Source: Actinomycetes bacterium
GTDB taxonomy: Bacteria; Actinomycetota; Coriobacteriia; Coriobacteriales; UBA8131
Direction: 5' to 3'
Length of the DNA: 64,000 nt
Assembly: GCA_009787085.1 (NCBI GenBank)
Contig: WRGR01000046.1
Span: forward strand, 11,147-75,146
Shown here: positions 38,524-63,147 of the stretch, in pieces
How the letters are laid out: the number at the start of each line of letters is the position of its first letter
How positions within the stretch are numbered: the stretch's first letter is position 1
Notes under the pieces: generated by a model
The model's database searches: none
What the model saw: the letters and a program-made list of their open reading frames with translations, nothing else
What the model was told of the DNA's origin: nothing
Position numbers and translations under genes: made by a program

Positions 38524-38598
38524 GCGGCAGTAGTTCAATGGTAGAGCATCAGCCTTCCAAGCTGATTGTTGCGGGTTCGAGTCCCGTCTGCCGCTCCA
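38524..38598 (+). tRNA. tRNA-Gly (anticodon TCC), CCA encoded
   Basis: Manual cloverleaf: acceptor GCGGCAG/CTGCCGC, anticodon stem TCAGC/GCTGA with loop CTTCCAA, T-arm GCGGG-TTCGAGT-CCCGT. Confidence 0.9.
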
Positions 38599-38632: not shown

Positions 38633-38795
38633 GGAAGCACCGATTTGATGCTGTTGCTCCAGATTGCAAGCAGTGCTACCCCAAGGCCGTTCGGGCAAAC
38701 GGTGCCACTACTAGCGGTAATGGCGCCGTTTGTGCAGGCAGGCCTAGGGTAGCTCAGCTTGCAAGATGGCGTGAGATGATTAATTCGGCGCTTCC
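38633..38795. repeat. Copy of the palindromic intergenic repeat family (arms GGAAGCACCGA at 38633-38643 and TCGGCGCTTCC at 38785-38795)
   Basis: The internal segment 38757-38780 matches 19788-19811 at 21/24 positions (gcttRcaagatggcgtgRSatgat). Confidence 0.7.
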
Positions 38796-39453
38796 TAAAA
38801 GGCGGTGGAGGACATTGGACGTTTTCGATACGCTGCGAGCAGCGGCCAACCCGGAACAAGCAAAGCGGATGAGCGCCTATATGCGCAACCACTTCGCCTT
38901 TCTCGGCATAGAGACACCGAAGCGCAGAAAGCTCTGTCGCGAGTTTTTGAAATCCCAGAAATCCGTCGACTGGGGGTTCGTTTTTGAGTGCTGGCAGCAG
39001 CCAGAACGGGAATACCAGTACTTGGCAGTGGATTGCCTTGCCAAGCTGAAGGGCCAGCTTACAGCGGCCGACATTCCGAACCTCGAGCGGTTGACAACCT
39101 CCAAATCATGGTGGGACACGGTAGATGCGCTGGACATGGTGGTTGGCGATATTGCGCTACGCCATGAGGAAGTCAACGCCACCTTGCTGCAGTGGAGCAG
39201 CGACGAAAACATCTGGCTGAGGCGTTGTGCCATCGACCACCAACGGGGCCGCAAAAACAAAACCAACACCGTGCTGCTAGAGCAGATACTCCTGAACAAC
39301 TTCGGCCAAAGCGAGTTTTTCATCAACAAGGCCATCGGCTGGAGCCTACGCGACTTCAGTAAGACCGACCCAGACTGGGTACGGCAGTTCATCGACAAGC
39401 ATAAGGAGAACATGTCGCCTTTGAGTGTTCGCGAAGGCAGTAAGTACTTGTGA
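38776..39453 (+). CDS. DNA alkylation repair protein (AlkD/AlkC-like HEAT-repeat family); start uncertain
   Basis: ...LRAAANPEQAKRMSAYMRNHFAFLGIETPKRRKL...WWDTVD...INKAIGWSLRDFSKTDP.... The tracked ATG lies inside the repeat element, so TTG at 38815 is an alternative start. Confidence 0.8.
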   Translation: MINSALPKRRWRTLDVFDTLRAAANPEQAKRMSAYMRNHFAFLGIETPKRRKLCREFLKSQKSVDWGFVFECWQQPEREYQYLAVDCLAKLKGQLTAADIPNLERLTTSKSWWDTVDALDMVVGDIALRHEEVNATLLQWSSDENIWLRRCAIDHQRGRKNKTNTVLLEQILLNNFGQSEFFINKAIGWSLRDFSKTDPDWVRQFIDKHKENMSPLSVREGSKYL

Positions 39454-39624
39454 CGTGGCATTTTGTGGTATGCCATTTGTCGATGCCTTCAAGTGACAGA
39501 TGCTTTTCGGTGCCTTCAAGCAGTAGGTGCACCACCCTTTGTCCCGCCTCTGCCGATATGCGATTATCCCGATGGAACCACTGTGGCATAGCAGACTAAC
39601 CAACTAGGTTCTAAGGAGGTGCGG

Positions 39625-39951
39625 ATGCCACAACTAGTCAACCTCTATGAGGCCAAGACCCATCTGTCTTCACTAGTCGATAGGGCCGCTAACGGCGAAC
39701 TGATCATTATTGCCCGTAACAACCGACCGGTTGCAACCCTGCAGCCCTACTCCGGGGGTGCTAGCTCAGGCTTCATCGGCCTCTTCAAAGACGCCTACAC
39801 CGTGCCAAGCGACTTCGACAGCTCCTCGATCGACGAGCTTAACGCCTTGTTCGAAGGCGACGCGCCTAATGGCAGCATGGGCAAAGAAAGCTCATGGCGA
39901 AGCTTTTGCTGGACACCAACATCCTGCTATTCGCCGGCAACGGCACGCTGA
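39625..39951 (+). CDS. Phd/YefM-family type II antitoxin with an unusual 58-nt overlap into the toxin gene
   Basis: TAAGGAGG RBS 6 nt before the ATG at 39625. MPQLVNLYEAKTHLSSLVDRAANGELIIIARNNRPVATLQPY....DFDSSSIDELNALFEG. Confidence 0.75.
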   Translation: MPQLVNLYEAKTHLSSLVDRAANGELIIIARNNRPVATLQPYSGGASSGFIGLFKDAYTVPSDFDSSSIDELNALFEGDAPNGSMGKESSWRSFCWTPTSCYSPATAR

Positions 39952-40283
39952 GCCAAGCAGCTTCCGAGATGTTTATCGATGACAGTCAGCAGAAATACTA
40001 CAGTGCGGCAAGCCTCTGGGAGATCGTTATCAAGACTATGACCGGCAAGCTTCCCTTAAAGATACCTGTGGAGAAGTTCGAAGAGGCAATGGCTGTTCAC
40101 GGTCTGCGTAGACTGGATATCACGGTCGCCCACATCTACGGCATCCAAAACCTAGAGCGCATCTAGGCCGACCCCTTTGACAGGCTGCTTGTGTCACAGG
40201 CCAAGCAAGAAGGCATGCTTTTGGCCACAGCGGACAAGGCTCTTCAAGGCTACGGTGACTGTATGCTTGTTTATCCGCACTAG
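39894..40283 (+). pseudogene. vapC: VapC-type PIN-domain toxin interrupted by an in-frame TAG at 40164-40166
   Basis: MAKLLLDTNILLF... (first acidic residue) and ...SLWEIVIK... precede the stop. The same frame then continues ADPFDRLLVSQAKQEGMLLATADKALQGY...* to 40283, carrying the remaining conserved PIN Asp residues. Confidence 0.75.
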
Positions 40284-40339
40284 AAGCGCCAAAACCATCT
40301 GGGTCAGCCAGAAAAAGCCCTGCGGACCGACCCTTACTG

Positions 40340-40745
40340 GAGCCAACAGTGTTGCTGGCAGCTGCCAAAGCCGAGAACGGGCGCTATCTGGACAGCCCCG
40401 ACGACTTGCCCGTGGCCTGCGACCCCTTCGCCGGCGGCGGCTCCACCCCGCTGGAGGCCTAGTGGCTGGGGCTTAAGGCCGACAGGGAGGTGCGCTACAC
40501 GGTGCGCCAGGGCGCCGACGGCCCTACGGGGGACGCCGACCGGACGGTCAACCGCGGTAACGGCGTCGCCCTCGGCGACAACACCCCGTTCTCTTCGGAC
40601 TACGTCAAGGCAGAGGGCGTCGCCGGCCAGATGGGCAGCCATCTGATCGCCATCGTCGCCGAGGGCGACAAGGGCAGGCTCTACCTCTCGCCCAACACCG
40701 AGCATGTCGCCGCCTCGACGGCCGCCCGCGCCCAGGAGGCCGGCA
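40340..40745 (+). pseudogene. Remnant of a DUF1156-type (anti-phage-associated) DNA methyltransferase, with an internal deletion and an in-frame stop
   Basis: My translation: ...LDSPDDLPVACDPFAGGGSTPLEA*WLGLKADREVRYTV...GQMGSHLIAIVAEGDKGRLYLSPNTEHVAA.... Motif I (DPFAGGGSxPLEAxRLGL) is joined directly to a far C-terminal segment of the family, as I recall it. Confidence 0.55.
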
Positions 40746-40923
40746 GCCAGTCCCAGCTGGCGGCTCCGCTGTCGGCCGTGATCCGGTCGATCTGCTCCTC
40801 GAGCCTCTGGATCTGCAGCCTGGCCTCCTCCATGCGGTCCTCCAAGGCCAGGCCGTCCGCTTGGAAGCGCATGGCGCAGTCCTCGAGCTTTCGCCACATC
40901 ATGTCGTCGTTGTCATTGCCCAC
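40681..40923 (-). CDS. Hypothetical coiled-coil protein (GTG start after AAGGAGG); the 3' end is probably truncated at the junction with the methylase remnant
   Basis: VGNDNDDMMWRKLEDCAMRFQADGLALEDRMEEARLQIQRLEEQIDRI.... RBS spacing is 6 nt. Confidence 0.4.
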   Translation of the reverse strand: MGNDNDDMMWRKLEDCAMRFQADGLALEDRMEEARLQIQRLEEQIDRITADSGAASWDWLPASWARAAVEAATCSVLGER

Positions 40924-41270
40924 AGGGAGCCTCCTTTTCCGTCGGGGAGGCGGCAGCGCCAGTCGTTGTTCGGGCGGCCGCAGTCGTCATGCGAGGCAGG
41001 GAGGACGGTGCCGAAGGCGTACTGGACCTGGTCGGCCTGGTCGGCCAGCAGCTCCTCGCGAGTGGCCGGGTGCGAGTTGATGGCCGGACGAGCACAGGCG
41101 GCAGCAGCCAGCAACACCATACAGACAGCGGCCAGGACGGCGATGCGCACCGCTGCGGCAACCCACCTCATTTCCCCGCCTCGTACTGCCAGGAGTAGCC
41201 CCATCTGCCCCTCGAGGACGGCGTTCTCCTCGCCGATGGCCGCGATCAGCTCGTCGATGAGGATCCTCAC
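40899..41270 (-). CDS. Hypothetical single-pass membrane protein
   Basis: The GTG start overlaps the upstream stop (GTGA). One TM helix (WVAAAVRIAVLAAVCMVLLAAAA). Confidence 0.45.
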   Translation of the reverse strand: MRILIDELIAAIGEENAVLEGQMGLLLAVRGGEMRWVAAAVRIAVLAAVCMVLLAAAACARPAINSHPATREELLADQADQVQYAFGTVLPASHDDCGRPNNDWRCRLPDGKGGSLWAMTTTT

Positions 41271-41557
41271 GGCCTGCCCCCTGCCCCCATCAGCTCCCGG
41301 GCGAGGTCGCGGTCGGCACCCGCCAGCGCCCCGAGCGTGCCCTTGATCGCCCGGGCGTCGGAGGCGACCAGGCCCCTCCAGGCCTTGAGCGCGCCCGCGA
41401 CCCCGGCGGAGAGGGCGTCGTGGGAGTCGTTGCCCGTACCTGGGGAGATGCCGCCGAAGGACGCGAGCTGAAGGCCGGTGTACTCCGCCAGCGAGCCCGT
41501 GAGCCCCTGGGCGAAGGCGTCTGCCCCGGCTTGGTTGCCTGTTATTGTTCCTGCTAT
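41267..41557 (-). CDS. Hypothetical ~96-aa Ala/Gly-rich protein with no canonical start codon (ATA sits after a strong AAGAGGAGG)
   Basis: ...TITGNQAGADAFAQGLTGSLAEYTGLQ...ALKAWRGLVASDARAIKG.... The tracked ORF extends to 41851 through AT-rich, non-protein-like sequence. Confidence 0.35.
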   Translation of the reverse strand: MAGTITGNQAGADAFAQGLTGSLAEYTGLQLASFGGISPGTGNDSHDALSAGVAGALKAWRGLVASDARAIKGTLGALAGADRDLARELMGAGGRP

Positions 41558-42030
41558 GTGCGTCCCCTCCTCTTGCGGTGCCCCTGGGGGTACCGCTCGA
41601 TGCTGCTGTGCCCTGTAAACGATGCGGTAGACTTTAGCGGATCGGCCGGGGGTTGGCAAGGACGGCGGCCATAGGCAGTTTGTGGCACTTGCATGCTCGG
41701 CCATTCTCAACCAGCTGATATGAATCCCCGGGCAGAGCTTTGGTAGTATGGCTGGCGGGGCAGCGCAGTAGTGCTTAGAAAGTGCCAATTCAAATGAGCC
41801 CGTAATTGAACTCATGAATGAGCATATAAATGGTTTTATGAAAGACCGCATCGATAACTTATAAGAAGGCTATCGAATCTAAGTTGATCGACAGTGACGC
41901 TAACAGTATATTTCCCTCCTTTCCTAGTGGTTATCCCGAAGCAATAACCCGTCTTATCGGGCAGTCTGTCACTAATCTACGCTACTTCATCGAAGCAGAA
42001 GACTACTCTCAATACGTAGGAGAAACTGCT

Positions 42031-42380
42031 GTGCCACTGAATAACCGTGAGCGGGTGGGCAAGGGCCCGGACTTTCTGGGCAAGGGGCTTTATGACATGG
42101 TCAACGAGGTGATGACCAAGAAATTCGAGACTAGCGACTGGGACAAACTGTGGGCTGCTCAGGATGCCGATAAATCAGGATCATCATTTAACTCTACGCT
42201 AAAGACATCTCGACCATCAGCCGTGAGATCCTGGAGCGCATCATCGCCACTGGCACCGCTTTGGAGATTTCCATAGAGATCCATGCCAAGAAGCCGGAGG
42301 GCTTCACTGAGGGCGAGATCCGGACCATCTCCGAGAACTCCGCAAGCCTCAATTTCGAAGATGCCGGGTTTGAGGAATAA
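42031..42380 (+). pseudogene. Remnant of a defence-island NTPase gene: a Swt1-like HEPN N-terminus fused by deletion/frameshift to the last ~62 codons (DUF499-like C-terminus, tentative)
   Basis: GTG at 42031 after GGAGA: PLNNRERVGKGPDFLGKGLYDMVNEVMTKKFETSDWDKLW.... The frame breaks near 42190. A second frame then ends ...ISIEIHAKKPEGFTEGEIRTISENSASLNFEDAGFEE*. Confidence 0.5.
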
Positions 42381-42416
42381 GAAACTGGCCGGCAGATCAG
42401 CCGGCCAGTTTCTTTG
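42381..42416. terminator. Bidirectional intrinsic terminator (13-bp perfect stem)
   Basis: GAAACTGGCCGGC-agatca-GCCGGCCAGTTTC followed by TTTG. It lies between the convergent remnant (+) and the PepSY gene (-). Confidence 0.7.
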
Positions 42417-42469: not shown

Positions 42470-43177
42470 TCAGTCGTCGATGTCGTAGTCCAGGACCTTG
42501 CCGGTCTTGGCATCGATGACCAGCTCGTGGTAGCGGTAGTTATGCTTCACCGTAATCTCATACTCCCAGCGGCCGTCGTCGCGCTCCAGCTCGGTCCGGG
42601 TGACGCTGCCGCCGCCGACCGCCTTCAGGGCCACATTCTTGGCACTGGCCGTGCTGATCAGGCCGTTGGATGTGCTCGCGCCTGCCGGGGCCACGAAGCC
42701 GTCGATACCGCCACCGTCAGCCTCGACGTACATCCTGTAGGTCTTGCCGTTGTACTTCACGTAGGTCTTCCAAGCCACGTCGCCGTAGGCAAAGGTCGGT
42801 GTGTACTTGGTCACATAGCCGCCGCCGACCTTGTTAATGGCCGCCTTTTTCACGGCAGTCCTAGAGATCAGACGGTCGATGTCGTAGTCACGCAGTTTGC
42901 CAGTGTAGGCGTCGAACTCCAGCTCGTACTTCTTGTAGCCGCGCACCACGACCACGTCGTACTCCAGGCGGCCGTCGTCGTAGGCCCGCTTGATGTTGTA
43001 GACCTTGCCGCCGCCGGCCTTCTTGACGGCGATCTTCTTCATGGCCGCCGTCGAGATCATCTTGGCGCCGCTGCTGGGTGCCGCGATGGCCGGGGTAGCC
43101 GGCACCACTAGTGCGGCGGTCAGGGCCATGGCCAGTGCGCAGGTTCCGATCGTCATTCTCTTCGTCCGCTTTCTCAT
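42470..43177 (-). CDS. Secreted protein with three PepSY domains
   Basis: Signal peptide ...ALAMALTAALVVPATPAIAAP. Three repeats of ...A..A.K.VGGG.V...E.E.DDGR.EYEV......Y.E...DA.TGKV.DYDID. Confidence 0.85.
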   Translation of the reverse strand: MRKRTKRMTIGTCALAMALTAALVVPATPAIAAPSSGAKMISTAAMKKIAVKKAGGGKVYNIKRAYDDGRLEYDVVVVRGYKKYELEFDAYTGKLRDYDIDRLISRTAVKKAAINKVGGGYVTKYTPTFAYGDVAWKTYVKYNGKTYRMYVEADGGGIDGFVAPAGASTSNGLISTASAKNVALKAVGGGSVTRTELERDDGRWEYEITVKHNYRYHELVIDAKTGKVLDYDIDD

Positions 43178-43480: not shown

Positions 43481-45208
43481 CTAACCAAAAATGCTCCAAT
43501 AGTACCAAGGCCTATCAACATCCATTGATTCTTGCATATCCTGCTCGTCCAGCGCCGCTTGGGCACCACGACGCACTTCAACGTCGGGGGCAAGCTGTGC
43601 TAGTTGCCGTAAATACGGCTGTGCCGCTCGACCCCCCTGTTCAAGGCTGTTGATGTCCATGATGGATGTTTGGCCAGAAAGGTAACGTGAAGTGTTGTAG
43701 CCGGCCACTGCCCCATCAACATTGACCAGTGAGATAGCCAAAAAGACGGCCAGAGCCAAGGCAATAGCCGGGCGGGCGGCATTGAAGGGGCGGATACTCC
43801 AAATGCTGAGCAGGATGAAGACGGCCAGCATCAGCAACATGAAGCAACTGGTGTAGAAACGTAGCGGGCTTAAGCCATAGGCTTGCACATAGAGTAACAT
43901 CTTAGCGGCGGCAGTGACCACCAACAGACAAGTCAAGAAACAGAGCGCAGCAGAGAGGACACGCAGCGCCAGAGGGTAGCCCTGATAGCTACGGCGGGCA
44001 AAGGACCAGAGACAGGCCAGCACGATCAGGTTGATCAGCGCCACTCCGCAAAGCTCGAAAAAGCCCTGACGGCTATACTGGGCGTAGGTGAAACTGGCCG
44101 GCAGTTGACCGTTGAGTGCCGAGAACAAGTAGTTGCCCATCACCCCGAAATACAGTAGGTAGACCGCGACAAAGAGGGCAACCGGCAAGATCAAGGCCAC
44201 AGATGGCAAAGCATGGACGGCAGCAAACCCTCGCAGCAGACCGGGGCGCTCTAGTAGCGCAACGTTGTTTTGGCTTTGATTGCCCAGGACCGAGGCGAAC
44301 AAATACACTGCTATAGGCAAGCCGATCAACAAATACCAGATGTTCAGGAGCAGCTCCGAGAGGCTCAAGTGCGCAGCCAGCCAGTCCAGCAGGCCGCTAA
44401 AGCCTTCGTCAGAGGATGAGAGCAGCGCCAACACTAGGAACAAAAGGGGCAGGGCAACTAGCAGACTGACCATCACGATCAGCGCCGTGATCAGCCAACT
44501 GCGGCGAGTGCCTGGCCGCCGGGCAAAAAGCGATCCGAAGACCTTGCCAAGGTTGGCAAAAGGGACAATGACGAACTGGTTGAACCAGTCGGCGGCCAAA
44601 AGCAGGGAAAGCGGCCTAGCGATCAAGGTTTTAGTACTCCAAGCCAGCCAAAACAAACAAAGGCCGAACTCTATATTGATGTGCAGCCAAGTGACCGGCG
44701 GCAGTCCATCGACGCTGCCGTAGAGGGCAAAGGGCAGAGCGCCGAGCAATGCTGCGGCCAAGAGCAAGGTGCCACCACGGTCAAAAACTTGTTTTTTAGC
44801 CTTTAGATAGACAGCCACCGAACCCAAGGCGAACAAAAAGAAAAGGCAGGTACCAATGCCAGCGTCCATAAAATCGAGTATCTCAAACCTCCAGAACAGG
44901 TAGCCAACCACCACCGTTGCCAGCAAAAACAGCAAGTCGGCACGGCAGAAGGGCAGTGCTGGCGGTTTGTTCACGGGCAGTGTTTGGCACTGTGGTGGTT
45001 GCGCACCCCCTGATGACGGCCATTGCTGCTGCGGTGGGCACTGCTGCTGCGGTGGGCACTGCTGCTGCGGTGGGCACTGCTGCTGCGGTGGGCACTGCTG
45101 CTGCGACCCGCTATCAGGTTGTGCCTGCGGCAGTTGCCCCGCCGTCTGACCTAGCGTCCCTTCTCTGTTTTGTGGCAAGGCTTCGCCTAGCCATGAACTC
45201 TTTTCCAT
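43481..45208 (-). CDS. Polytopic membrane protein (DUF4153/DUF4173-like) with an N-terminal QQQCPP repeat
   Basis: 575 aa with more than 10 predicted TM helices. It sits downstream of the XRE/DUF2975 pair. Confidence 0.7.
   Translation of the reverse strand: MEKSSWLGEALPQNREGTLGQTAGQLPQAQPDSGSQQQCPPQQQCPPQQQCPPQQQCPPQQQWPSSGGAQPPQCQTLPVNKPPALPFCRADLLFLLATVVVGYLFWRFEILDFMDAGIGTCLFFLFALGSVAVYLKAKKQVFDRGGTLLLAAALLGALPFALYGSVDGLPPVTWLHINIEFGLCLFWLAWSTKTLIARPLSLLLAADWFNQFVIVPFANLGKVFGSLFARRPGTRRSWLITALIVMVSLLVALPLLFLVLALLSSSDEGFSGLLDWLAAHLSLSELLLNIWYLLIGLPIAVYLFASVLGNQSQNNVALLERPGLLRGFAAVHALPSVALILPVALFVAVYLLYFGVMGNYLFSALNGQLPASFTYAQYSRQGFFELCGVALINLIVLACLWSFARRSYQGYPLALRVLSAALCFLTCLLVVTAAAKMLLYVQAYGLSPLRFYTSCFMLLMLAVFILLSIWSIRPFNAARPAIALALAVFLAISLVNVDGAVAGYNTSRYLSGQTSIMDINSLEQGGRAAQPYLRQLAQLAPDVEVRRGAQAALDEQDMQESMDVDRPWYYWSIFG
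45015..45104 (-). repeat. In-frame 18-bp tandem repeat (4 perfect copies plus 1 variant) encoding QQQCPP
   Basis: ggtgggcactgctgctgc at 45033, 45051, 45069 and 45087; variant copy at 45015. Confidence 0.9.
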
Positions 45209-49145: not shown

Positions 49146-52100
49146 TTATTCCCGCCGTCCTGCTCGGACGGTACTGAGCCGTCTTGCCAGGCGCGGACCG
49201 AAAACACAAACTGCGCCGCTGCAGAGCAAATCCAATGCTACCAGCAACAGGAGCAGACCCTGATCACCGGTCAAGGGCGCGATACTGCCACTCCGAGCTG
49301 GGACCAACTTGATGGAGGCTTTTGCCTGTACCCCAGGCGGCCAATCACTGCCGTCGGGAGGAACGACCGTTACATTGTTGACGATCTCCTTCGGAAAGCT
49401 CTCTGCCGGTGTTCCATCACCAACATCGACTTGAGCGCGATAGGTGAAGATATAGGTCTCGCCGCCGCGCAGTATCGCGATGGGCACCTCGATAGTGCGG
49501 CTCTCCGGATGATAAACGCTGGCACCCACCTTCTCCACCGTTCCATTCGGGTAGGTGAGCATCATGGTGTCGGTGTCTGGCACCAGCTCGTCTGGCAGGT
49601 AGTCGAATATCATCACGTCACGCCAAACTGTGCCCGCCTTGGGGTTGCTCAGGGTGACTTTATATCGCAACAGGTCATCGGGTTCTGCATCTTGCTGCGG
49701 ATGCGTCTCGTTCTCCACGCCCTTGGTCAGGGTCGGTGGGTCGCCGGGGTCATCAGGCTCGTCGGGGTCGGGCGGCTGGCCGCCGTCATCTCCGGGAGGA
49801 ACCAGCTTGATCTTGGAGGTCGTGCCGCCACCGGGCGGCGGATCGCCGCCATCGTGGCTGACCGTTACGTTGTTGACGATCTCGTCGGGGACATTCTCTG
49901 CCGGCGTGCCATCATCAACATCGACCTGAGCCTGATAGGTGAAGACGTAGGTCTCACCACCGCGCAGTATCGCAATGGGCACCTCAATGGTGCGGGTATC
50001 CGGATGATAGACACTGGCACCCACCATCTCTCTACTTCCGTTCGGATAGATCAGTGTCATGGTGCTGGTGTCCGGCACCAGTTCCTGCGGCAGGTAGTCG
50101 AATATCATCACATCGCGCCAAACTGTGCCCGCCTTGGGGTTAGTCAAAGTGACCCGATAGAGTAGCAAATCGTCGGGCTCAGCATTTTGCTGTGGATGCG
50201 TCTGGTTGTCCACATCCTTCGTCAGGAGCGGCTCCCCAGAATTATCTCCAGGATCAGTGGGGTCGGTGGGGTCCGTGGGGTCGGTGGGGTCCGTGGGGTC
50301 GGTGGGATCGGTGGGGTCCTGATTGCCAACCCGGCCAGTACCATCATCGCCTTGGGGATAGATATAGCCGGTGTGGATGTGGCCACGTCCACCGCCCCAA
50401 TAAGCATGAGCGCTGTTGCCCAAGTCATAGGCGGTCTCAGTAACTGTTGCATCGAACTCCACTCTAATGCTACTGCCACCGGAAATATCACCAAGCGCCA
50501 GCCGGAAGAGCCGCGTTGATGAATTATAGCTGGGTGTGCTGGACGTTGGCAGCGGTGTCGCACTGTCATTGAGGTACAGTCGTACCGTACTGAGGTCGGG
50601 TACAACCCCCACCGGCATAGTGTCCTCGATGTTGACGTCCTTCCACAGAGAATGTGGATCACCGTCATTCGCAGCAGTGATGGTGTAGGTCAAAACATCG
50701 CCACGCTTTGTTTTTTGGTTGGGGTGGCTCTTGTTGACTGCCGACTTGTACAGAGCTGGCTGATTGCTGCTGATCTCGCCAGTGCCGACCGGGCCTGTGG
50801 AAACCCCGTCATCGGTTTGGGCGGTGTTGTCCAGCGCGTGATAGCCCTGCCCCGAGTTGTCGATCACCGTATAAACGTCATCGCTGATTATCGCCTTGAA
50901 GCTGAGGTAGCACTTCTGGCCGCCCCATATCAGGCCGGCGTCCACCCGCAGCATACGGGTCGCCGGGTTATAAGCCGAAGCAGAAACCTGGGTTGTTGTT
51001 CCGTCCGGGTGCTGAAGCCAAATGCTGCTGGTGTCTATCTCCATGCCATCTGGAACGCGGTCGTTGATCACCACGTCCTCCCAAAGGGAGCCGGGCTTGG
51101 TGTTGCCGGCCTCGATGGTATAGATCAAGCAGTCGCCCACTGTCGGGTTCCCCGGGTGGACTGGGGCAACAACGCTCTTGTGCAGATAAACGTCACCGCT
51201 GCCATGGCCGACCGGACCGGGGTCAGGGAAATCGGGCGGATAGACCGGCGGTGTGCGAAGCCCATCGGCGGCGGCGATATTGCCGAAGGAATCCTGCACC
51301 TCCTGCGGCTCGGTCGGCGGATCGTCGGTATCGTAGACCGTAACATCGAACTCCAGCAGATACGACTGGCCGCCAACAACTTCGCCGATATCCAAAGTCA
51401 GGGTGCGAGTGCTCTCGTCATAGACCCTTTCGTAACTGAGGTGCTCCCTGGTTCCGTTCTGCCAAGTCACATAGATGCTCTCTGGAATCAGCCTCATCAT
51501 CGTCGGCAGCTTGTCATTGATCACAACATCATGCCAGATCGAGTTCTTGCTCCGATTCGTAGCTGTCACAATGTAGTGCAAGATCGCGTCGTCATCGTCT
51601 TCTGCCGGCGCTTTCCATTTCGCCTCTTTTGTCAACGACGGAGCAGCCTCCCAAACCGGATAGACGGTTATCGATGCCACTACCAAGTCGTCATCGCTGA
51701 CATTGACAATGCCGGAGTCTTTGATCGTTGTCCAACCTAAGAACTTCCGACCGTTGAAGGGCAGGGAGAACAGCGACTGGTCAGCGGTGTCCTGAAGGTT
51801 GCTGCCATACTCGACATCCTTCGACCAAACAAATCCGGTGGGTTCATCAACAACCGTCACCGTGTAAGTGTTGGTTGCCCAAATCGCGTAAACGTAAATG
51901 ACCTTGTCCGTATTGGCCCAGGCAGTTCGCACCGCTGTGGCTGTGGTAACAAACGGATCGAGGTTGTTGATGGTTGTACCTGTTCTGTTCAATGCCCAGC
52001 CAGCAAAATGATAGCCTGCTGGTGGAGTCGGCGGGGCAGGCATCATGGCGACCGGGTCACCATCCTGGTAATAAAGCGTCATCGGCTGACCGGAGTCATC

Positions 52101-55100
52101 GAGCAGCGGCACTACTGTGTTGTCGGTCGCGTCATAGTTGCGGACATAGGTGATGGTCACAGCATCTGGGTCAACTGGGGTAGTCCCCTTGGTCTGCCAT
52201 TGCGCAAAGACTGTAAAGCTACCGGCCAGCGCCGTCTCTGAGCCAACCGCAGTGTTAGCGTCGAACCAAGTGCCCGTGCCATCGGCACTGGTGTTCCAAC
52301 CGAGGAAATCGTAGCCGAAGAGCACCGGGTTATTGGGCATCCGCTCACCTAGGGTAGTCTGGGGCTCATATACCGTGCGTGTCGCGTAGACACTCGAAGC
52401 TGAGCCGTTGTTCAGATCAAAAGTGATCTGGGCGGTCGGTTCGGCAGCCCGGCCCCACACCGCATAGAGAGTGACATCGGTGCGCAGCTGGAAGTCCGGC
52501 TGGCTGAACTCCCTGGTGGTGGCATCATAGGCGAAGTCGACACGTCCGGCATCGGCCGCCCGCTTGCTTTGGGCCCAGCCTAGGAAAACAGACCCGTCAC
52601 GGGCTAAGTCGCCTGGGCCGATGACGCTGGCCGTATCGTTTAGGTGATACTCGTTGTCATCAGTTGGCACCGTGCCAGCAGTTGCCCCGTTAGCGTTGTA
52701 GAGCACAGCGTAGTTCTCATCGGCCGCCTTCTGCCTCCAGACGGGATACAAAGTGGCATCGCCAGTTATCAGATAACCACTGGCAAAGCTGTCTGTTGGC
52801 CGATCATATGGGTAGTCGGGGTTGCCGGCATCGGCTTTCTCAACAGTGTCTGCCCAACCGATAAAGGCATAACCCGTCTTGACCAAATTGCCCGGCCCCG
52901 GCAGCCCGATCGATTGACCGAGACGACCGCTGTCATTAGGCGGTGCCTCGCCGCTGTCGGCACCACGGTCACTGTATTGCACGGTATAGGGGCTCCAAAC
53001 GGCATACAGCTCCGTGTTGGCAGTGATCGTGAAGAAGGTGAAGTCGAATGTCTGGGTGCCTAGGTCGTAGGCAAAATCAGGAGCCGCCGCCTCTGGAGCG
53101 AATGCCCAGCCCATAAACTTGAGGCCGTCGTTTTCCAAGTTGCCCGGACCCAGCACCATGACCGGGTCGTTTTTAGCATAGCCCCGCACCGATGGGTCAT
53201 GGGGGGGTTCGCCGCCGGTGTTGCCATTGCCGTTGTAGGTGACGAAGACCGGGTCTTTGTAACGCAGCGCGTCAATCAGGTCTTTTAGGCGCTTGGCAGC
53301 GTCGTTGATGTCTTCTTGTGAGGTCCTCGGATCAGGATGGAGGTAGAACTGCACGGAGTCGAAGTAACCGTCCTCCATTGGGTAATAGGTTTCTTCGGTG
53401 TACAGTGCCTTGCGCGGCCGATGGACATTGCTGGCCACATCCATATAGTGAACAAGCTCAGTCCAGTCCAACTGAGCACCCTCCGGGTTTTGCTCCCATA
53501 CGGGATAGAGAACCACATCGTCAGTAATCGCAAAGGGCAAAGTGGCGCCGTCGTAATAATAGATGTAGGTAGCTGGATTGGCCGGGTTCACACCCGCCTC
53601 TAGCATCCCCAGCGTCGCCCAGCCCTTGAACGTATAGCCGCTACGCCGCAGGTCGTTATGTGGCAGCAGGGTCACTGTGCTATCAAGATGGTAGGTTTGC
53701 GGGTCGCTGAAGGAGCTGCCGCTGGTGGTGCCGACCAAGATGCCGTTAACCTCACTGGCGTTGGAATAGGTCACTGTGAAAGGGCCATACCTTTGCCAAG
53801 TGGCAAAGAGCACGGTGTCTTGGCTTATCGTAAATGCGCTTTCATTGGCATTGAAGGTGTTTGTTCGCCAGTTGTAATGGAAGACAGGGGTTTGGGCAGC
53901 GGCACTGTCCTGACTGTTGGCCCAGCCGATAAAAACATAGGTGTTGGTGCCATCGCCCTTGGTCATCTCGCCCGGGCCGAGCAGGTTGACGGTGCTGCCG
54001 ACGTAGTAGGCATTGGCGGCAGCTGGGGCGTTGCCAGCAGTGTCATAAGGCACCTTGGCCAAATCGTCAGCACCGTTGCCGTCATAGGCCACCGTGAACT
54101 GGGAGTTCTGTGACCAAACGGCATAAAGCGTGGTTTGGTCCGTCAGGAATATCGTCGGGCCCGGTGTGAAGCTATTGGTTGCGGCAGCGTAGGCATAATC
54201 CGGCGTGGTTGCCGTAGCGCTGGTTGCCCAGCCCAAGAAGGTCCAACCGAACTTGGTCATGCTGCCCGGCGGCGCGATTGTGACGGCATCGTCTGTGTGG
54301 TAGGTCCCACCTGTCGGCGGCGAGCCACCGTCCGAACCATTGCCGTTGTAGGCCAAGCCGTACTGCGACTTCTCTTGCCAAACGGCATAGAGCGTAACAT
54401 TGGCGGCAATCACGAACTGCTCAGGTGTCAGGCTCGGGGGCGCTGTGGCCGCATTATAGGCATAGTCAGGCACCGTCGCCGCAATATTGGTTGACCAGCC
54501 GATGAAGGTATAGTTTTGCTTGGCCAAATCATTTGGCCCCAGCACCAGCACCGTGCTTTGATCATAGTAACGGTTGGTGTTGACCTGTGCATCGCCAGCT
54601 ATGTCGACCGGAACCGTACCGCTGGTATTGAGATTGCCGTTATAGGTGACGGTGTACTTGTTGTCCTCCTGCCACACCGCATACAGTGTGGTGTTCCCCG
54701 GTATCTCGAACGAGCCGGGGGTGAATCCACCGGTGCTAGCATCATAAGCATAGTCCGGTGCCGAAGTGGCCGCACTGGTCGACCAACCGATGAACTTGTA
54801 GTGAAGCTTCGCTAGGTCGCCGGGGGGCGCGGGCGGAATTGCCGTGCCGCCGAGGAAGTCCCCGCTTACCGTTGGAGCATCACCGGCGGTATTACCATTG
54901 CCGTTATAGGCCAGCGTGTAGCGGTTTTCCTGCCAAACGGCATACAGGGTGGTGTCTGCCGTGATGTTGAAAGCCGCCGTGTTGAATGTTGCCTGTGTGG
55001 AGTTATAGGCAAAGTCAGGGGTTGTTGCATCTGGGTCCAACGCCCAGCCCCGGAATGTCCAGCCTTCGATAGTGCCCGTGCCGTTATAGCGGCGCATGCT

Positions 55101-58100
55101 GCCTGGGCCCAACACCGTAACGTTGCTGCCCACGTAATAGGCATTCGCCAATGCCGGGTAAGGCGCATTGCCGTGGGTATCGGCTGGCACCGTGCCGCCA
55201 ACCGTACCGGTTGGGGCATTGGCATTGTAGGTCACTGTGTAGTGGGGGTTTTCCTGCCAAACAGCGAACAGCATGGCGCTGCCGTTGATGTTGGTGATAG
55301 CTGCGGGGTTGACTGAGCCGGATGCAGCGTCATAGGCATAGGTGGGACTGGTCGCGGTCGGACTGGTTGCCCAGCCCCGGAATGTCCAGAACTGCTTGGC
55401 CATCTCTCCGGGGCCTTGGATGGGGACTGTCTCGCCTTGGAAGTACTGCTCCATCGCCGGAGCGCCACCGCTGCTGAGAACAGCGTTCGCTATATAGATT
55501 ACCTCGTATGATGGCAGCCGCGTATACACATAAGTCACCGTATGCTGGCCATCGACACTGGCCAAGACATTGCTGGGCAAAACCCCGCCCTCGCGGGGAT
55601 ACATGGTGCCGTTGTCCAGTATCCAGCCTTGGTAGTCCCAGCCCCGAAGCTCCGGATAAAGCGGGCTGCCATCAACGCCTAGGCTATTCCAAAGCCGGAT
55701 GTTGTCGGCGTATGCCCTTCCCCATGGCAAGGTTACCATCTCGTCGTCCAGCAGGCTGTTACCGGTGTTGTTGAACTCGCGCCAGCGCTCCGTGATGTAG
55801 AAGCCGTCGGCATGCTCATTGGTTTTTTGGTAGACATAGACGATGGTCATGTCGCTTGACAGGCTCTCGATGACCGGCGGATCGCCAGCGATCAAGTCGT
55901 GGCGGTCATCACCTTGCTTAAAGCCGATGTAGCGCCAAATCCACTCACCGTCGCTGAGACGGTCCGGCGGGTTGCCGGCAACCATCTCGCCACCGACCCG
56001 TGTATTGCTGATATCCGGTGCCAGCGGCCGCGCCATGTACACGTCATCAGTGCCATCGACCAGCACATCTAAGATATTGGAGTGGAACTGTTCGGTGACC
56101 ACATAGGTCGTGCTGAAGAGAAGCGTGATGGTCTGGTTGGCTTGGATGTTCGTCAGTTGCGGTGGGTCGCCCTGATGAACAACGGGCCTAGTGTAGGTGC
56201 CGCCGTTACCGTCATCAACCTCTTCAGTTGTCCCATCGGTCCAACCACGATAAACGCTGTAGGTCTTGCCAGTGGGCAACGCTATGCCGTTGGCTATGGC
56301 ATTTTGAATATTAGTCTCGGCCATGGGGTTGAAGCCTTGCCCCCGATCAACTAGATAGTCCTCATTGGGCGCTAGGATATTGGCATCATTTTGGTATTCC
56401 TTGTACTGTACGGTAACAGCAAAGCTTTGCTTGAAGTAAAGATCGATCGTCAAGCTGTTGTTGGTGCTCAAAAGCTCAGCCGGGCTGAACGTAACGTCCG
56501 GTGCGCTAGGCACAGGCCCGGCAGTCACGGCTCCGAAAACACTGTCTTTGGCCAGACGGTAGCTCACATAGAAGTAGCTACGCGAGTTGATGATCGGGTC
56601 CATGTGGTAGGCCGCTATGTAGTACGGGAGCGTTGCGTCCACGTTCTCTTTGTATTGGGTCTGGAGAATCAGGTTGGTGTCCTGATCGATGTAGTTGATG
56701 GTCAGCGGGATGTCTTTGAGGTAGTAGTAGATGACATCGTTCAGCTCCCCTGGCAAAACATCGGGAGGAGCACCAACAGTTCTTGTTGCGCCGCCATCTG
56801 TCGAATAGGCAAAGTAACGCCAATTGTAGGCAGTATTGCTGTCGTATTGGGTCAGGCTGCCAAGCGCGGTCATTGGCGGCAGATAGTCGCTGCCACCGCT
56901 GACCAAACTGGTCGTATTGCCCTGCACCGCAGTTGTCGGGTCCTTGTAGCTCAGATAATGCTCGGTGACGATATGCGAGGTAGTGTGATAGGTGTGGTTC
57001 GAGCGGCTGGTGTAGTCCAGCGCGTTCTCCATCACCGCCCGGTTATCAAACAGGTCTTGGCCGGCGGCCACCGTGACTGAGTATTTGAACTTGGTGATCG
57101 CCTCATCGGGTATTTGGGTGAATTGCCATACCAGCTTCTGGCGCTCCCGGGTTTGCGTGACCATGGCCTGGGTGGCATCATCCCAAACTTGAACGTCCTC
57201 GTAGTAGGGTTCGACCTTGAAATCAACTAGGCCGATACCTTGGTTATAAGCCACGCCTTGGGACAACGCGACACCTTGGTCGTCAACAACCTGATAGCTG
57301 CCGTTATAGGTCATGCCGTACGGCAACACGTCGCTGAGTACAAACGGGTACACCGACGCACCGTTGGCACCAGTGCTCACGTCAGCAGTCATTATCACTT
57401 TGTCTTTAGGAGTCCAGCCGGCAATATTTATCTCGCTTTGCTTGTTAGTCAGGGTAATGCCGTATTCCAGTTGATCGCCAACATCAACCCGAACTGGTTT
57501 GCTCTCTGTCCCCCGCTCAGAGCTAGCAGGCGGTTTTGTAATGTTGCTGGCCGTTACCTCCGCGTCTTTGACGGCGGGAACCAGTGGCACCCTGGTGTAG
57601 AAGAGCGTAAACTCGTTTTGGGAGAGCGGCGGCGCGTAGAAATCGGCCGCCTGATACATGTTGTTTTGCAGGCCATTTAAGCTGGTGCTGTCGTACTCGT
57701 AGAGCTTTCCACCCCGGTTGATGTACTGCGGCGGCTCGACATAGAAGTAATCGCCAGGCGTTATCGGCTCACCGTCCTGGTCACGCTGGATGTGCCGTTC
57801 GATGCCGGCAATGGCCTCGCCGGTATCCATGTCGATGAAGTGCGCCAGTGCGCCAACTTGTTCACCGTCCCTGAAGGCAGCGATGCGCATATTCTCGTAC
57901 TGGATAACGGTCAGGGAACTGCAGGCATGGGCAAGGTAGCCGGTGAAGAAGCCGAAGCCGTTGCCGCTGTATATCGGCTGTTGGACATCGGCCACCACTC
58001 TGCCGTCCAAGTAGATCTTAAAGGCACCAGTTACGGAGTTGCGATCAACACGAACATCGTAGGGAACAGTGGATGCTGCCGAGATACCCGTCTTATAGGT

Positions 58101-62630: not shown

Positions 62631-63147
62631 GTTTGTGCCCCCCGTGCTTATCCGATTCTACTGCTAGCTCAATGATCCTGATACCCACTTTTCCACCGCA
62701 AACAACCACTATCAATACCCCTAACGCCGCGTGCCCCAAAGAAGCACCGACTGGCATCACCAATGCTTGACGGTTGTATTTTTTGCCACAGAATCCCTCT
62801 GTTAGCGGCTGTCGCAAAAACCTCAGTTGGTGTTTTTGTGACTGCCAACAGAGCACGGCCAATGAGCCCCTCCCCAAAGGAGCCTGATCGAAACCTATTC
62901 ACTGTTTACCTCACCCACCCTGCTTGATACTTACATTTGCCTTAACTGCCTTAAATAAGCGACCTCATCGTTTGGTTTTCTTCGATTCGTCTGGAGTTTT
63001 TATGGAACAATGCGGCCTTCATCCTATTTCAGACTTACGACACAAATTTTAGCATACATTCTGATAATATCAAGACAAATTTTAGATTACCAACACTTCA
63101 GCAAACATGAGGGTTACTGCTCACCCCTCACTCGCACCGCGCCGCTA

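What the first reader, a model, noticed from the sequence alone, without database searches (positions are those of the whole stretch)
39619..42416. Decayed defence island: TA module plus internally deleted DUF1156-methylase and HEPN/DUF499-like remnants
Several defence-type pieces lie between the alkylation-repair gene and the PepSY gene. (a) A Phd/VapC pair. (b) A fragment in which methyltransferase motif I (DPFAGGGSTPLEA, then a TAG, then WLGL) is joined directly to a segment I recall from the far C-terminal part of DUF1156 anti-phage methylases (...IAIVAEGDKGRLYLSP...). (c) A GTG-initiated Swt1-like HEPN N-terminus (PLNNRERVGKG..FLGKGLYDMV....F..SDWDKLW) that breaks frame after ~50 codons. 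It resumes in another frame with the last ~62 codons of a large protein, ending ...KPEGFTEGEIRTISENSASLNFEDAGFEE*. DUF1156 and DUF499 genes normally sit side by side in a described anti-phage system. Here both have lost their catalytic cores, so this looks like the footprint of an inactivated system. It is useful as a marker of a variable defence hotspot next to tRNA-Gly (38524-38598).
Basis: partly seen in the sequence, partly recalled or inferred. Interest (0 to 1): 0.6.

Follow-up and report, generated by a model that had tools for sequence, protein, structure and literature searches.

The report
Dead remnants of Hma anti-phage system
This stretch holds the broken leftovers of a known phage-defence operon (Hma, also called the DUF499-centred BREX-related system) and a toxin gene killed by a stop codon, stitched together with a patch of foreign high-GC DNA; it is an ordinary gene graveyard, not a working or new system.

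Summary
39625-40283 is a Phd/VapC pair, but vapC carries an in-frame TAG at codon 91. 40349-40750 is two pieces of a DUF1156-type methylase (HmaB; PADLOC E 6e-22). They match reference residues ~98-139 and 264-355 of ~927 and are joined in frame, so about 125 codons are missing, and a TAG follows motif I. 42031-42380 is the first 58 and last 61 codons of a Swt1-HEPN/DUF499 ATPase (HmaC), with about 1010 codons deleted. No helicase (HmaA) trace remains. All catalytic motifs lie in the deleted parts: DPPY, the HEPN Rx4H motif and the DUF499 ATPase core. One detail is wrong: the second HmaB piece is not far C-terminal. Two features were missed. The HmaB pieces sit in a 1.3-kb patch of 70-72% GC (GC3 about 92%; window mean 58%) that also holds three minus-strand orphan ORFs. 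The HmaC pieces have host-like composition and are closest to a Coriobacteriales HmaC. This points to a two-source mosaic, not one operon decaying in place. The "hotspot" idea is untestable: the organism is an uncultured Coriobacteriia-like lineage whose nearest trigger factor is 56% identical. Known system, pseudogenised; low interest.

The parts
38524..38598 (+). tRNA-Gly(tcc). Left landmark, divergent from trigger factor. Not itself part of the remnants.
   Evidence: ARAGORN. Rfam tRNA 71.6 bits. The same tRNA-Gly(tcc)-tig linkage is seen in distant relatives L005 and L007.
39625..39951 (+). phd/yefM-type antitoxin gene (108 aa). It looks intact but is 15-28 aa longer at the C-terminus than plasmid homologues, and it overlaps vapC by 58 nt.
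   Evidence: Pfam PhdYeFM_antitox E 1.6e-8. NCBIfam phd_fam E 3.7e-6. Alignment with the 80-aa and 93-aa homologues.
39894..40283 (+). vapC (PIN) toxin pseudogene. An in-frame TAG at 40164-40166 (codon 91 of 130) lies at the conserved His of LPxHHxDPFDRLL, so the DPFDR acidic site and the C-terminus are not translated.
   Evidence: PIN E 0.044 for the 90-aa ORF and 8.1e-9 for the read-through. Alignment to VapC from Paracoccus and Thermus plasmids. 362 plasmid records span the TAG position. TAG ends 9 of 27 long ORFs in the window, so it is a normal stop here.
40345..41640 (.). Foreign high-GC patch (about 70-72% GC; window mean 57.9%, sd 4.3%). It holds the HmaB pieces and three orphan ORFs. 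Both edges cut through coding sequence.
   Evidence: Composition profiles. Codon-phase GC. It is the only run of 11 consecutive 400-nt windows at or above 67% GC in the 64 kb.
40349..40480 (+). HmaB (DUF1156-type N6-adenine methylase) remnant 1. Matches reference residues ~98-139, including motif I (DPFAGGG). TAG at 40460-40462 followed by TGG, where all four reference HmaB proteins compared have Q-R (LEAQRLGL).
   Evidence: tblastn against Paenarthrobacter HmaB residues 114-139, E 9e-5. PADLOC HmaB profile 131-163, E 1.5e-7. Reference sequences.
40481..40750 (+). HmaB remnant 2. Matches reference residues 264-355 of 927, in the same frame as remnant 1. This is an in-frame loss of about 125 codons, and the gene is then cut off before motif IV (DPPY, at residue 524).
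   Evidence: tblastn E 2e-20 to 2e-22. PADLOC HmaB 314-396/967, E 6e-22. In 63 loci the two pieces lie 122-148 residues apart, with one outlier. Motif positions.
40681..40923 (-). orf80. Orphan, predicted coiled-coil. GC3 0.94. Its 3' end runs antisense into the HmaB remnant.
   Evidence: ORF list. Phase GC. No Pfam, PADLOC or NCBIfam hit. No relatives found.
40899..41270 (-). orf123. Orphan with an N-terminal helix and a hydrophobic helix. Its start overlaps the upstream ORF's stop by 4 nt.
   Evidence: An exhaustive HMMER search of 1.84 billion representatives found only itself. AlphaFold pLDDT 60, pTM 0.25.
41267..41851 (-). orf194. Only the C-terminal ~100 codons (41267 to about 41560) carry a high-GC coding signature. 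The N-terminal part is low-GC filler that supplies a start codon. It is probably a 5'-truncated foreign gene.
   Evidence: GC3 0.86 against 0.58. The only homologue is the same ORF in a JGI/GEM contig. AlphaFold pLDDT 44.
41641..42030 (.). AT-rich spacer (48% GC) with no detectable homology. It is not the HmaB C-terminus that directly precedes hmaC in intact operons.
   Evidence: No PADLOC hit. No tblastn hit to any of 78 Hma loci. GC.
42031..42204 (+). HmaC remnant 1. GTG start plus residues 1-58 of the Swt1-like HEPN domain. The Rx4H catalytic motif (reference residues 94-99) is missing.
   Evidence: tblastn E 3e-12. E 5e-10 against plasmids. Pfam HEPN_Swt1 only E 0.14, covering 38 of 115 positions. 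Motif position.
42195..42380 (+). HmaC remnant 2. The last 61 residues (reference 1070-1130 of 1132) plus the TAA stop, in a different frame. The deletion junction lies within 42195-42204, and about 1010 codons are lost, including the whole DUF499 ATPase domain.
   Evidence: tblastn E 8e-14. PADLOC HmaC 882-941/941, E 1.6e-9. 65% identity to Coriobacteriales locus L011. In 50 loci the two pieces lie 989-1043 residues apart.
42379..42414 (.). Near-perfect 18+18-nt hairpin directly after the hmaC stop and opposite the convergent PepSY gene. It is probably a bidirectional terminator.
   Evidence: Inverted repeat I5. Terminator-like site.

Best explanation
The region between the DNA-alkylation-repair gene and the PepSY gene is a non-functional mosaic of pseudogene fragments.

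Shown:
- vapC is knocked out by a nonsense codon. phd is still open.
- Only about 130 codons of an HmaB methylase survive (roughly 14% of the gene), in two pieces joined in frame, with a nonsense codon after motif I.
- Only the first 58 and last 61 codons of an HmaC Swt1-HEPN/DUF499 ATPase survive, out of frame with each other.
- There is no trace of the HmaA helicase-nuclease.
- Every catalytic element lies in the deleted parts: the DUF1156 domain, methylase motif IV, the HEPN Rx4H motif and the DUF499 AAA+ core. The locus therefore cannot methylate, sense or restrict.

Inferred:
- The remnants come from two sources. The hmaC ends and their terminator are what is left of a resident, Coriobacteriales-type hma operon after a ~3-kb internal deletion and loss of everything upstream.
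- The hmaB pieces arrived inside a 1.3-kb patch of DNA from a very high-GC actinobacterium, together with three orphan genes on the other strand.
- Capture may have been by recombination anchored on hmaB-hmaB homology (homology-facilitated illegitimate recombination), followed by further deletion and C-to-T point decay (CAG CGG to TAG TGG).
- The only plausibly expressed product is the Phd antitoxin.
For: - Profile and BLAST identification of the fragments.
- Canonical operon (helicase, DUF1156, DUF499) in five plasmid loci and 78 genome loci.
- Deletion sizes measured against 63 and 50 loci holding both pieces.
- Positions of the lost domains and motifs.
- No helicase match in the window at E<0.05.
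- TAG is a normal stop in this window.
- VapC alignment across the TAG.
- Composition: HmaB GC3 0.92-0.93 and HmaC 0.64-0.74, against 0.65-0.71 for five of the six host genes measured (PepSY 0.86). The HmaB-minus-HmaC GC3 difference is +0.24, outside the -0.38 to 0.00 range of 48 intact operons.
- Nearest relatives differ. HmaC-C is 65% identical to Coriobacteriales L011, which ranks 1st. HmaB is 46% identical to L011 (rank 15 of 63), against 54-56% for Populibacterium, Micrococcales and Propionibacterium.
- The sequence is identical in two assemblies, ENA and Logan. A JGI/GEM contig carries a 100%-identical copy of orf194.
Against: - The nearest-relative argument rests on 60-90-residue pieces. 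Differences of about 10 identity points are within sampling error, and the HmaC N-terminal piece ranks L011 only 17th of 56.
- The composition argument assumes that both pieces would have ameliorated equally.
- No donor sequence for the high-GC patch was found anywhere. Its origin and the recombination mechanism are therefore inferred.
- No expression data are available.
- The AT-rich 41641-42030 segment is unexplained.
Confidence: 0.75

Rival explanations
1. Single-operon decay in place. One resident hmaABC operon lost hmaA and most of hmaB and hmaC by successive deletions. The material between the remnants is unrelated insertion.
For: The HmaB and HmaC remnants are in the canonical order and on the same strand. 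Hma operons are known to accept inserted genes between their components (PMC11232893), and an IS3 element sits between the two genes on the Microbacterium plasmid. The identity differences between candidate relatives are not individually significant.
Against: The HmaB pieces have GC3 0.93 and share that composition with the adjacent orphan ORFs, while the HmaC pieces have GC3 0.69. The difference of +0.24 is larger than in any of 48 intact operons, where the maximum is 0.00. The GC step at about 40345 coincides with the start of HmaB homology. The sequence directly upstream of the hmaC start is not an HmaB C-terminus.
Confidence: 0.2
2. Assembly chimera. The high-GC patch is a metagenomic mis-join and not part of this genome.
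For: The window comes from a metagenome-assembled lineage, and the GC jump is abrupt.
Against: The same sequence occurs at 100% identity over 38.7-45 kb in a 319-kb ENA contig and in a separate Logan assembly of SRR5247074 that is seen in 2 samples. orf194 is also on a 220-kb JGI/GEM contig.
Confidence: 0.03
3. The short ORFs are complete, functional genes. Candidates are a mini HEPN-like protein, a split VapC, or a small-protein cassette formed by orf80, orf123 and orf194.
For: The orphan ORFs show codon-position GC patterns typical of real high-GC genes, and there is a 4-nt start/stop overlap. phd remains open.
Against: Intact homologues have 122-148 and 989-1043 residues between the pieces. 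The frames differ. The catalytic residues are missing. orf123 has no homologue among 1.84 billion representatives. orf194 is 5'-truncated by composition. The structure models are low-confidence.
Confidence: 0.04

Closest known systems
Hma system (HmaA Snf2-like helicase-nuclease, HmaB DUF1156 methylase, HmaC DUF499 ATPase). Named in PADLOC; HmaA defence against T4 shown in Halomonas meridiana (PMC11232893); renamed DUF499-centred BREX-related (BR) system in PMC12839542.
   Same: The fragments are homologous to HmaB and to HmaC with an N-terminal Swt1-like HEPN domain. They keep the canonical hmaB-then-hmaC order and strand, and hmaC keeps its natural start and stop.
   Different: There is no hmaA. 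Only about 14% of hmaB and about 10% of hmaC remain. Nonsense and frame-shifting lesions are present, and all catalytic motifs are gone. The two remnants probably come from different operons.
Intact Hma operon of 'MAG: Coriobacteriales bacterium Gsp477_bin137' (locus L011, JAIRXA010000167.1)
   Same: It is the closest relative found for the HmaC remnants (65% identity at the C-terminus, 59% at the N-terminus). Its GC (55.5%) is similar to the host's, and it belongs to the same broad lineage as the window's organism.
   Different: L011 has full-length genes: HmaB of 937 aa and HmaC of 1119 aa, with Pfam DUF1156, HEPN_Swt1 and DUF499 domains, plus an extra Schlafen/AlbA_2 gene. Its HmaB is only 46% identical to the window's HmaB piece.
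Phd/YefM-VapC (PIN) type II toxin-antitoxin modules, for example on Paracoccus liaowanqingii and Thermus thermophilus plasmids
   Same: Same gene order, same families, and 38-44% identity for VapC over its full length.
   Different: The toxin has a premature TAG at codon 91 of 130. The antitoxin ORF is 15-28 residues longer and overlaps the toxin gene by 58 nt, compared with 4-20 nt in the homologues.

Membership tests
Hma / DUF499-centred BREX-related system | Tripartite operon that includes a helicase(-nuclease) gene, HmaA | tested here: not met
   tblastn of two full-length HmaA proteins against the whole window gave no hit better than E 0.06, and none near the locus.
Hma / DUF499-centred BREX-related system | HmaB homologue (whole-protein profile) | tested here: met
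   PADLOC HmaB E 6.3e-22 (profile 314-396) and 1.5e-7 (profile 131-163). These are fragments only.
Hma / DUF499-centred BREX-related system | N-terminal DUF1156 domain (PF06634) on the methylase | tested here: not met
   No Pfam hit. The domain is at residues 14-83 in the reference, and the remnant starts at about residue 98.
Hma / DUF499-centred BREX-related system | Methylase catalytic motif IV (DPPY) | tested here: not met
   The motif is at residues 506-532 in four references. The remnant ends at about residue 355.
Hma / DUF499-centred BREX-related system | DUF499 AAA+ ATPase domain (PF04465) in HmaC | tested here: not met
   The domain is at residues 293-950 in the reference, and the window lacks residues 59-1069. 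No Pfam hit.
Hma / DUF499-centred BREX-related system | hmaB directly upstream of hmaC on the same strand | tested here: inconclusive
   Order and strand are kept. However, 1.3 kb of unrelated sequence separates the two remnants, and their composition suggests different origins.
Swt1-like HEPN (PF18731) | Complete domain above the Pfam threshold, with the Rx4-6H motif | tested here: not met
   E 0.14 and 12.8 bits against a 27.5-bit cut-off, covering profile positions 4-41 of 115. RN(L/T/K)WAH lies at reference residues 94-120, beyond the remnant's end at residue 58. Homology of the retained 58 residues to HEPN-DUF499 proteins is solid.
Phd/YefM-VapC type II TA | Phd/YefM antitoxin domain | tested here: met
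   PF02604 E 1.6e-8, 34.6 bits against a 29.8-bit cut-off. TIGR01552 E 3.7e-6.
Phd/YefM-VapC type II TA | Uninterrupted PIN-domain toxin with all conserved acidic residues | tested here: not met
   In-frame TAG at 40164-40166, before DPFDR. The PIN score passes the cut-off only when the stop is read through (36.6 bits; 14.8 bits without).
tRNA-linked integrative genomic island / defence hotspot | Integrase, direct repeat of the tRNA 3' end, and variable content among close relatives | tested here: inconclusive
   There is no second copy of the 24-nt tRNA-Gly 3' end at up to 3 mismatches. None of the ORFs between the tRNA and PepSY that were scanned against Pfam, PADLOC or NCBIfam matched an integrase family. 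The only other assemblies are identical. Relatives at 49-55% trigger-factor identity have other genes at this position, but they are too distant to be informative.

The most novel reading that the evidence does not exclude
The 1.3-kb high-GC patch is not inert junk. On this reading it is a captured cassette whose three orphan small ORFs (orf194 C-terminal part, orf123 with a membrane helix, and coiled-coil orf80) form a working module of a previously unseen family. It could be an accessory or anti-defence unit of the kind found inserted inside hma operons. It would have been acquired across class boundaries by recombination anchored on hmaB homology.
Probability: 0.05. Interest if true: 0.4.

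Novelty: already known. Interest (0 to 1): 0.12.

Why it matters
The practical value is in annotation, in three ways.
- It shows that a Coriobacteriia-like gut or environmental lineage once carried an Hma/BR-type defence operon and a VapBC module and has lost both.
- Gene callers annotate antisense and orphan ORFs over these remnants in public assemblies.
- Pfam domain scans miss such remnants, because the named domains (DUF1156, DUF499) lie in the deleted parts. Whole-protein profiles are needed.

The compositional mosaic is a small natural example of foreign high-GC DNA being patched into a decaying defence locus. Nothing here bears on an open question about how Hma works.

Tried and rejected
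- The word-indexed protein search with the HmaB fragment returned nothing at E<=1e-3. tblastn against plasmids and the PADLOC profiles did the job instead.
- A GTDB genome scan with the trigger factor found no relative. The organism has no sampled close relative: the next-best trigger factor is 56% identical.
- Exact-protein look-ups: the alkylation-repair protein, P0121 and P0123 are not on record. The PepSY look-up gave only identical assemblies.
- Donor search for the high-GC patch:
  - blastn against plasmids hit only the HmaB part, and blastn against phages hit nothing.
  - An exhaustive HMMER search of orf123 found only itself.
  - A word search with orf194 C-terminus plus orf80 found only itself.
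  - IMG/VR scans found nothing.
- A JGI metagenome scan for a PepSY 33-mer found nothing.
- tblastx of the patch against the Hma loci gave only low-score compositional noise.
- AlphaFold on orf123 and orf194 gave pLDDT 60 and 44 with pTM of 0.25 or less. This is too poor for a fold search, so none was run.
- Rfam found no RNA family other than the tRNA.
- TAG recoding was rejected because TAG ends 9 of 27 long ORFs in the window, including the ORF at the clpX position.
- A natural short HmaB isoform was rejected because all but one of 63 loci have 122-148 residues between the two pieces.
- The 18-nt inverted repeat at 40349 / 41100 was considered as an inversion junction. It was rejected because orf123 reads through 41100 with a constant codon phase.


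Full report
**What is there**

The interval lies between tRNA-Gly(tcc) (38524-38598) with a DNA-alkylation-repair gene (38776-39453; PF08713, E 1e-69) on the left, and a convergent PepSY gene (42470-43177) on the right. I mapped it with six-frame translation, family profiles and tblastn against intact reference operons.

**TA module**

- phd (39625-39951) is a bona fide Phd/YefM antitoxin (Pfam E 1.6e-8; NCBIfam E 3.7e-6).
- vapC starts at 39894, but its ORF stops at a TAG at 40164-40166. The same frame then continues with ADPFDRLLVSQAKQEG... to 40283.
- The 90-aa ORF scores below the PIN threshold (E 0.044). The read-through sequence scores 36.6 bits (E 8e-9).
- The read-through sequence aligns end to end with plasmid VapC toxins of about 125 aa. 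In that alignment the TAG sits at the conserved His of LPxHHxDPFDRLL.
- TAG terminates 9 of 27 long ORFs in the window, so this is a true nonsense mutation and the toxin is dead.
- The Phd ORF is 15-28 residues longer than its homologues and overlaps vapC by 58 nt. I did not resolve whether that is natural.

**HmaB remnant**

- In one frame, 40349-40480 matches residues ~98-139 of DUF1156-type methylases, including motif I (DPFAGGG). 40481-40750 matches residues 264-355 of 927.
- PADLOC HmaB gives E 6.3e-22 for profile positions 314-396 and E 1.5e-7 for positions 131-163. tblastn against plasmid DUF1156 genes gives E 3e-20.
- In 63 loci that contain both pieces, they are 122-148 residues apart (median 125, with one outlier). 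Here they abut. This is an in-frame deletion of about 125 codons, which removes the conserved SDLNP...WARTV...C segment visible in the references. It is not a natural short form.
- A TAG (40460-40462) followed by TGG replaces the Q-R of LEAQRLGL, which is present in all four reference HmaB proteins compared. The simplest reading is two adjacent C-to-T changes; that is an inference.
- The Pfam DUF1156 domain (reference residues 14-83) and the catalytic DPPY motif (residue 524) both lie outside what is left. This explains why Pfam shows nothing here.
It lies within the first 40% of the protein.

**HmaC remnant**

- 42031-42204 (GTG start) matches residues 1-58 of Swt1-HEPN/DUF499 proteins. In another frame, 42195-42380 matches residues 1070-1130 of 1132 and ends at the natural stop.
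- tblastn against plasmids gives E 5e-10 (N) and 5e-12 (C). PADLOC HmaC positions 882-941/941 give E 1.6e-9.
- In 50 intact loci these pieces are 989-1043 residues apart. About 3 kb has been deleted, with the junction inside 42195-42204.
- The HEPN Rx4H motif (reference residues 94-99) and the whole DUF499 domain (293-950) are lost. Pfam HEPN_Swt1 is sub-threshold (E 0.14) because only 38 of 115 positions remain.
- An 18+18-nt hairpin (42379-42414) follows the stop codon.

**Missing helicase**

No remnant of the helicase HmaA is detectable anywhere in the window.

**The system**

The order helicase, DUF1156, DUF499 is conserved on every plasmid I opened and in 78 genome loci recovered with an alignment of the HmaC ends.

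- PADLOC calls this system Hma.
- HmaA alone protects E. coli from T4 through a nickase domain (PMC11232893).
- A 2026 comparative study re-describes the trio as DUF499-centred BREX-related RM-like systems (PMC12839542).

From about 40345 to about 41640 the GC content is 67-72%, against a window mean of 57.9% (sd 4.3%). This is the only such run in the 64 kb.

- The patch contains the HmaB pieces (GC3 0.92) and three minus-strand ORFs: orf80 (40681-40923, GC3 0.94), orf123 (40899-41270, GC3 0.81) and the C-terminal ~100 codons of orf194 (41267 to about 41560, GC3 0.86). Their codon-phase GC patterns fit genuine high-GC coding sequence.
- None of the three ORFs has a family hit.
- orf123 has no homologue among 1.84 billion representative proteins except itself.
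- orf194 and orf80 found only their own copy.
- Plasmid, phage and IMG/VR searches found nothing for the non-HmaB part of the patch.
- Structure models are low-confidence helices.
- Public gene calls on the identical contigs annotate these ORFs, plus an ORF antisense to the HmaB remnant.

**One operon or two sources**

- The HmaC pieces have host-like composition (GC 52-54%, GC3 0.64-0.74; five of the six host genes measured have GC3 0.65-0.71, PepSY 0.86).
- In 48 intact operons, GC3 of the HmaB middle piece minus GC3 of the HmaC ends ranges from -0.38 to 0.00. Here the difference is +0.24.
- The best HmaC relative is an intact operon in a Coriobacteriales MAG of 55.5% GC (L011; 65% identity at the C-terminus, 59% at the N-terminus).
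- The HmaB piece is only 46% identical to L011's HmaB (rank 15 of 63). It is 54-56% identical to HmaB from Populibacterium, Micrococcales and Propionibacterium.
- The identity differences alone are not significant for such short pieces, and the HmaC N-terminal piece ranks L011 only 17th.
- Taken with the composition step, which coincides with the start of HmaB homology, I favour a mosaic. In that view the hmaC ends are the residue of a resident Coriobacteriales-type operon, and the hmaB pieces came in with foreign high-GC DNA. Homology between incoming and resident hmaB may have anchored the capture; that step is inference.
- The 390-bp AT-rich stretch upstream of hmaC (41641-42030) is not an HmaB C-terminus and remains unexplained.

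**Reality of the sequence**

A 319-kb ENA contig and a separate Logan assembly are 100% identical to the window across 38.7-45 kb. A 220-kb JGI/GEM contig carries a 100%-identical copy of orf194. An assembly chimera is therefore unlikely.

**Hotspot claim**

- The trigger factor names the organism only as an uncultured "Actinomycetes/Coriobacteriia" MAG, and the next-best homologue is 56% identical. A GTDB scan found no close relative.
- Two distant relatives keep tRNA-Gly(tcc) beside tig but have unrelated genes beyond it. One has housekeeping genes. The other has small unknown genes, one of which gives a weak restriction-enzyme hit (E 8e-4).
- There is no repeat of the tRNA 3' end, and none of the ORFs screened against family libraries in the interval is an integrase.
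- The hotspot idea can be neither supported nor refuted with the available data.

**Verdict**

It is probably wrong in treating the footprint as a single decayed operon, and the hotspot part is untested. The locus should be annotated as pseudogenes. It is a degraded copy of known systems and of low interest. The only mildly unusual aspect is the cross-lineage compositional mosaic.

Noticed in passing
window 45018-45107: An 18-nt tandem repeat (GGGCACTGCTGCTGCGGT) encodes QQQCPP repeats near the N-terminus of the 575-aa membrane ORF (43481-45208, minus strand). The ENA contig L001 differs from the window by an indel and an alignment break here, consistent with one repeat unit, so repeat number appears to vary between assemblies.
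   Followed up: partly
window 39477-39520: Two 17-nt direct repeats, TT(G/T)TCG(A/G)TGCCTTCAAG, lie 27 nt apart and about 100 nt upstream of phd. They are a candidate operator for Phd autoregulation (family D5).
   Followed up: no
window 39852-39951: The Phd ORF continues about 25 codons past the point where homologues end, and it overlaps vapC by 58 nt (4-20 nt in homologues). The original stop may have been lost.
   Followed up: partly
window 40349-40366 and 41100-41117: An 18-nt inverted repeat (17 of 18 complementary) has its left arm exactly at the left edge of the high-GC patch. It is probably chance, because orf123 reads through the right arm without a phase change.
   Followed up: partly
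window 49146-62657 (minus strand): A giant ORF of about 4500 aa, with no precomputed Pfam hit on record in the public gene call. Not examined.
   Followed up: no
L011 3250-4014: The intact Coriobacteriales Hma operon carries an extra Schlafen/AlbA_2-domain gene between the helicase and HmaB (Pfam E 6e-12).
   Followed up: no
L003 8331-10031 (Microbacterium sp. No. 7 plasmid A): The plasmid's hmaB is cut short (754 aa) by an IS3 transposase inserted between hmaB and hmaC. This is another naturally disrupted Hma operon.
   Followed up: no
L007 1600-2592: In a relative with 55% trigger-factor identity, the gene next to the tRNA-Leu/tRNA-Gly cluster gives a weak PADLOC hit to a methyl-directed type II restriction enzyme (E 8e-4, 16.9 bits). 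This is a faint hint that the tRNA-proximal site may hold defence genes in other lineages.
   Followed up: partly
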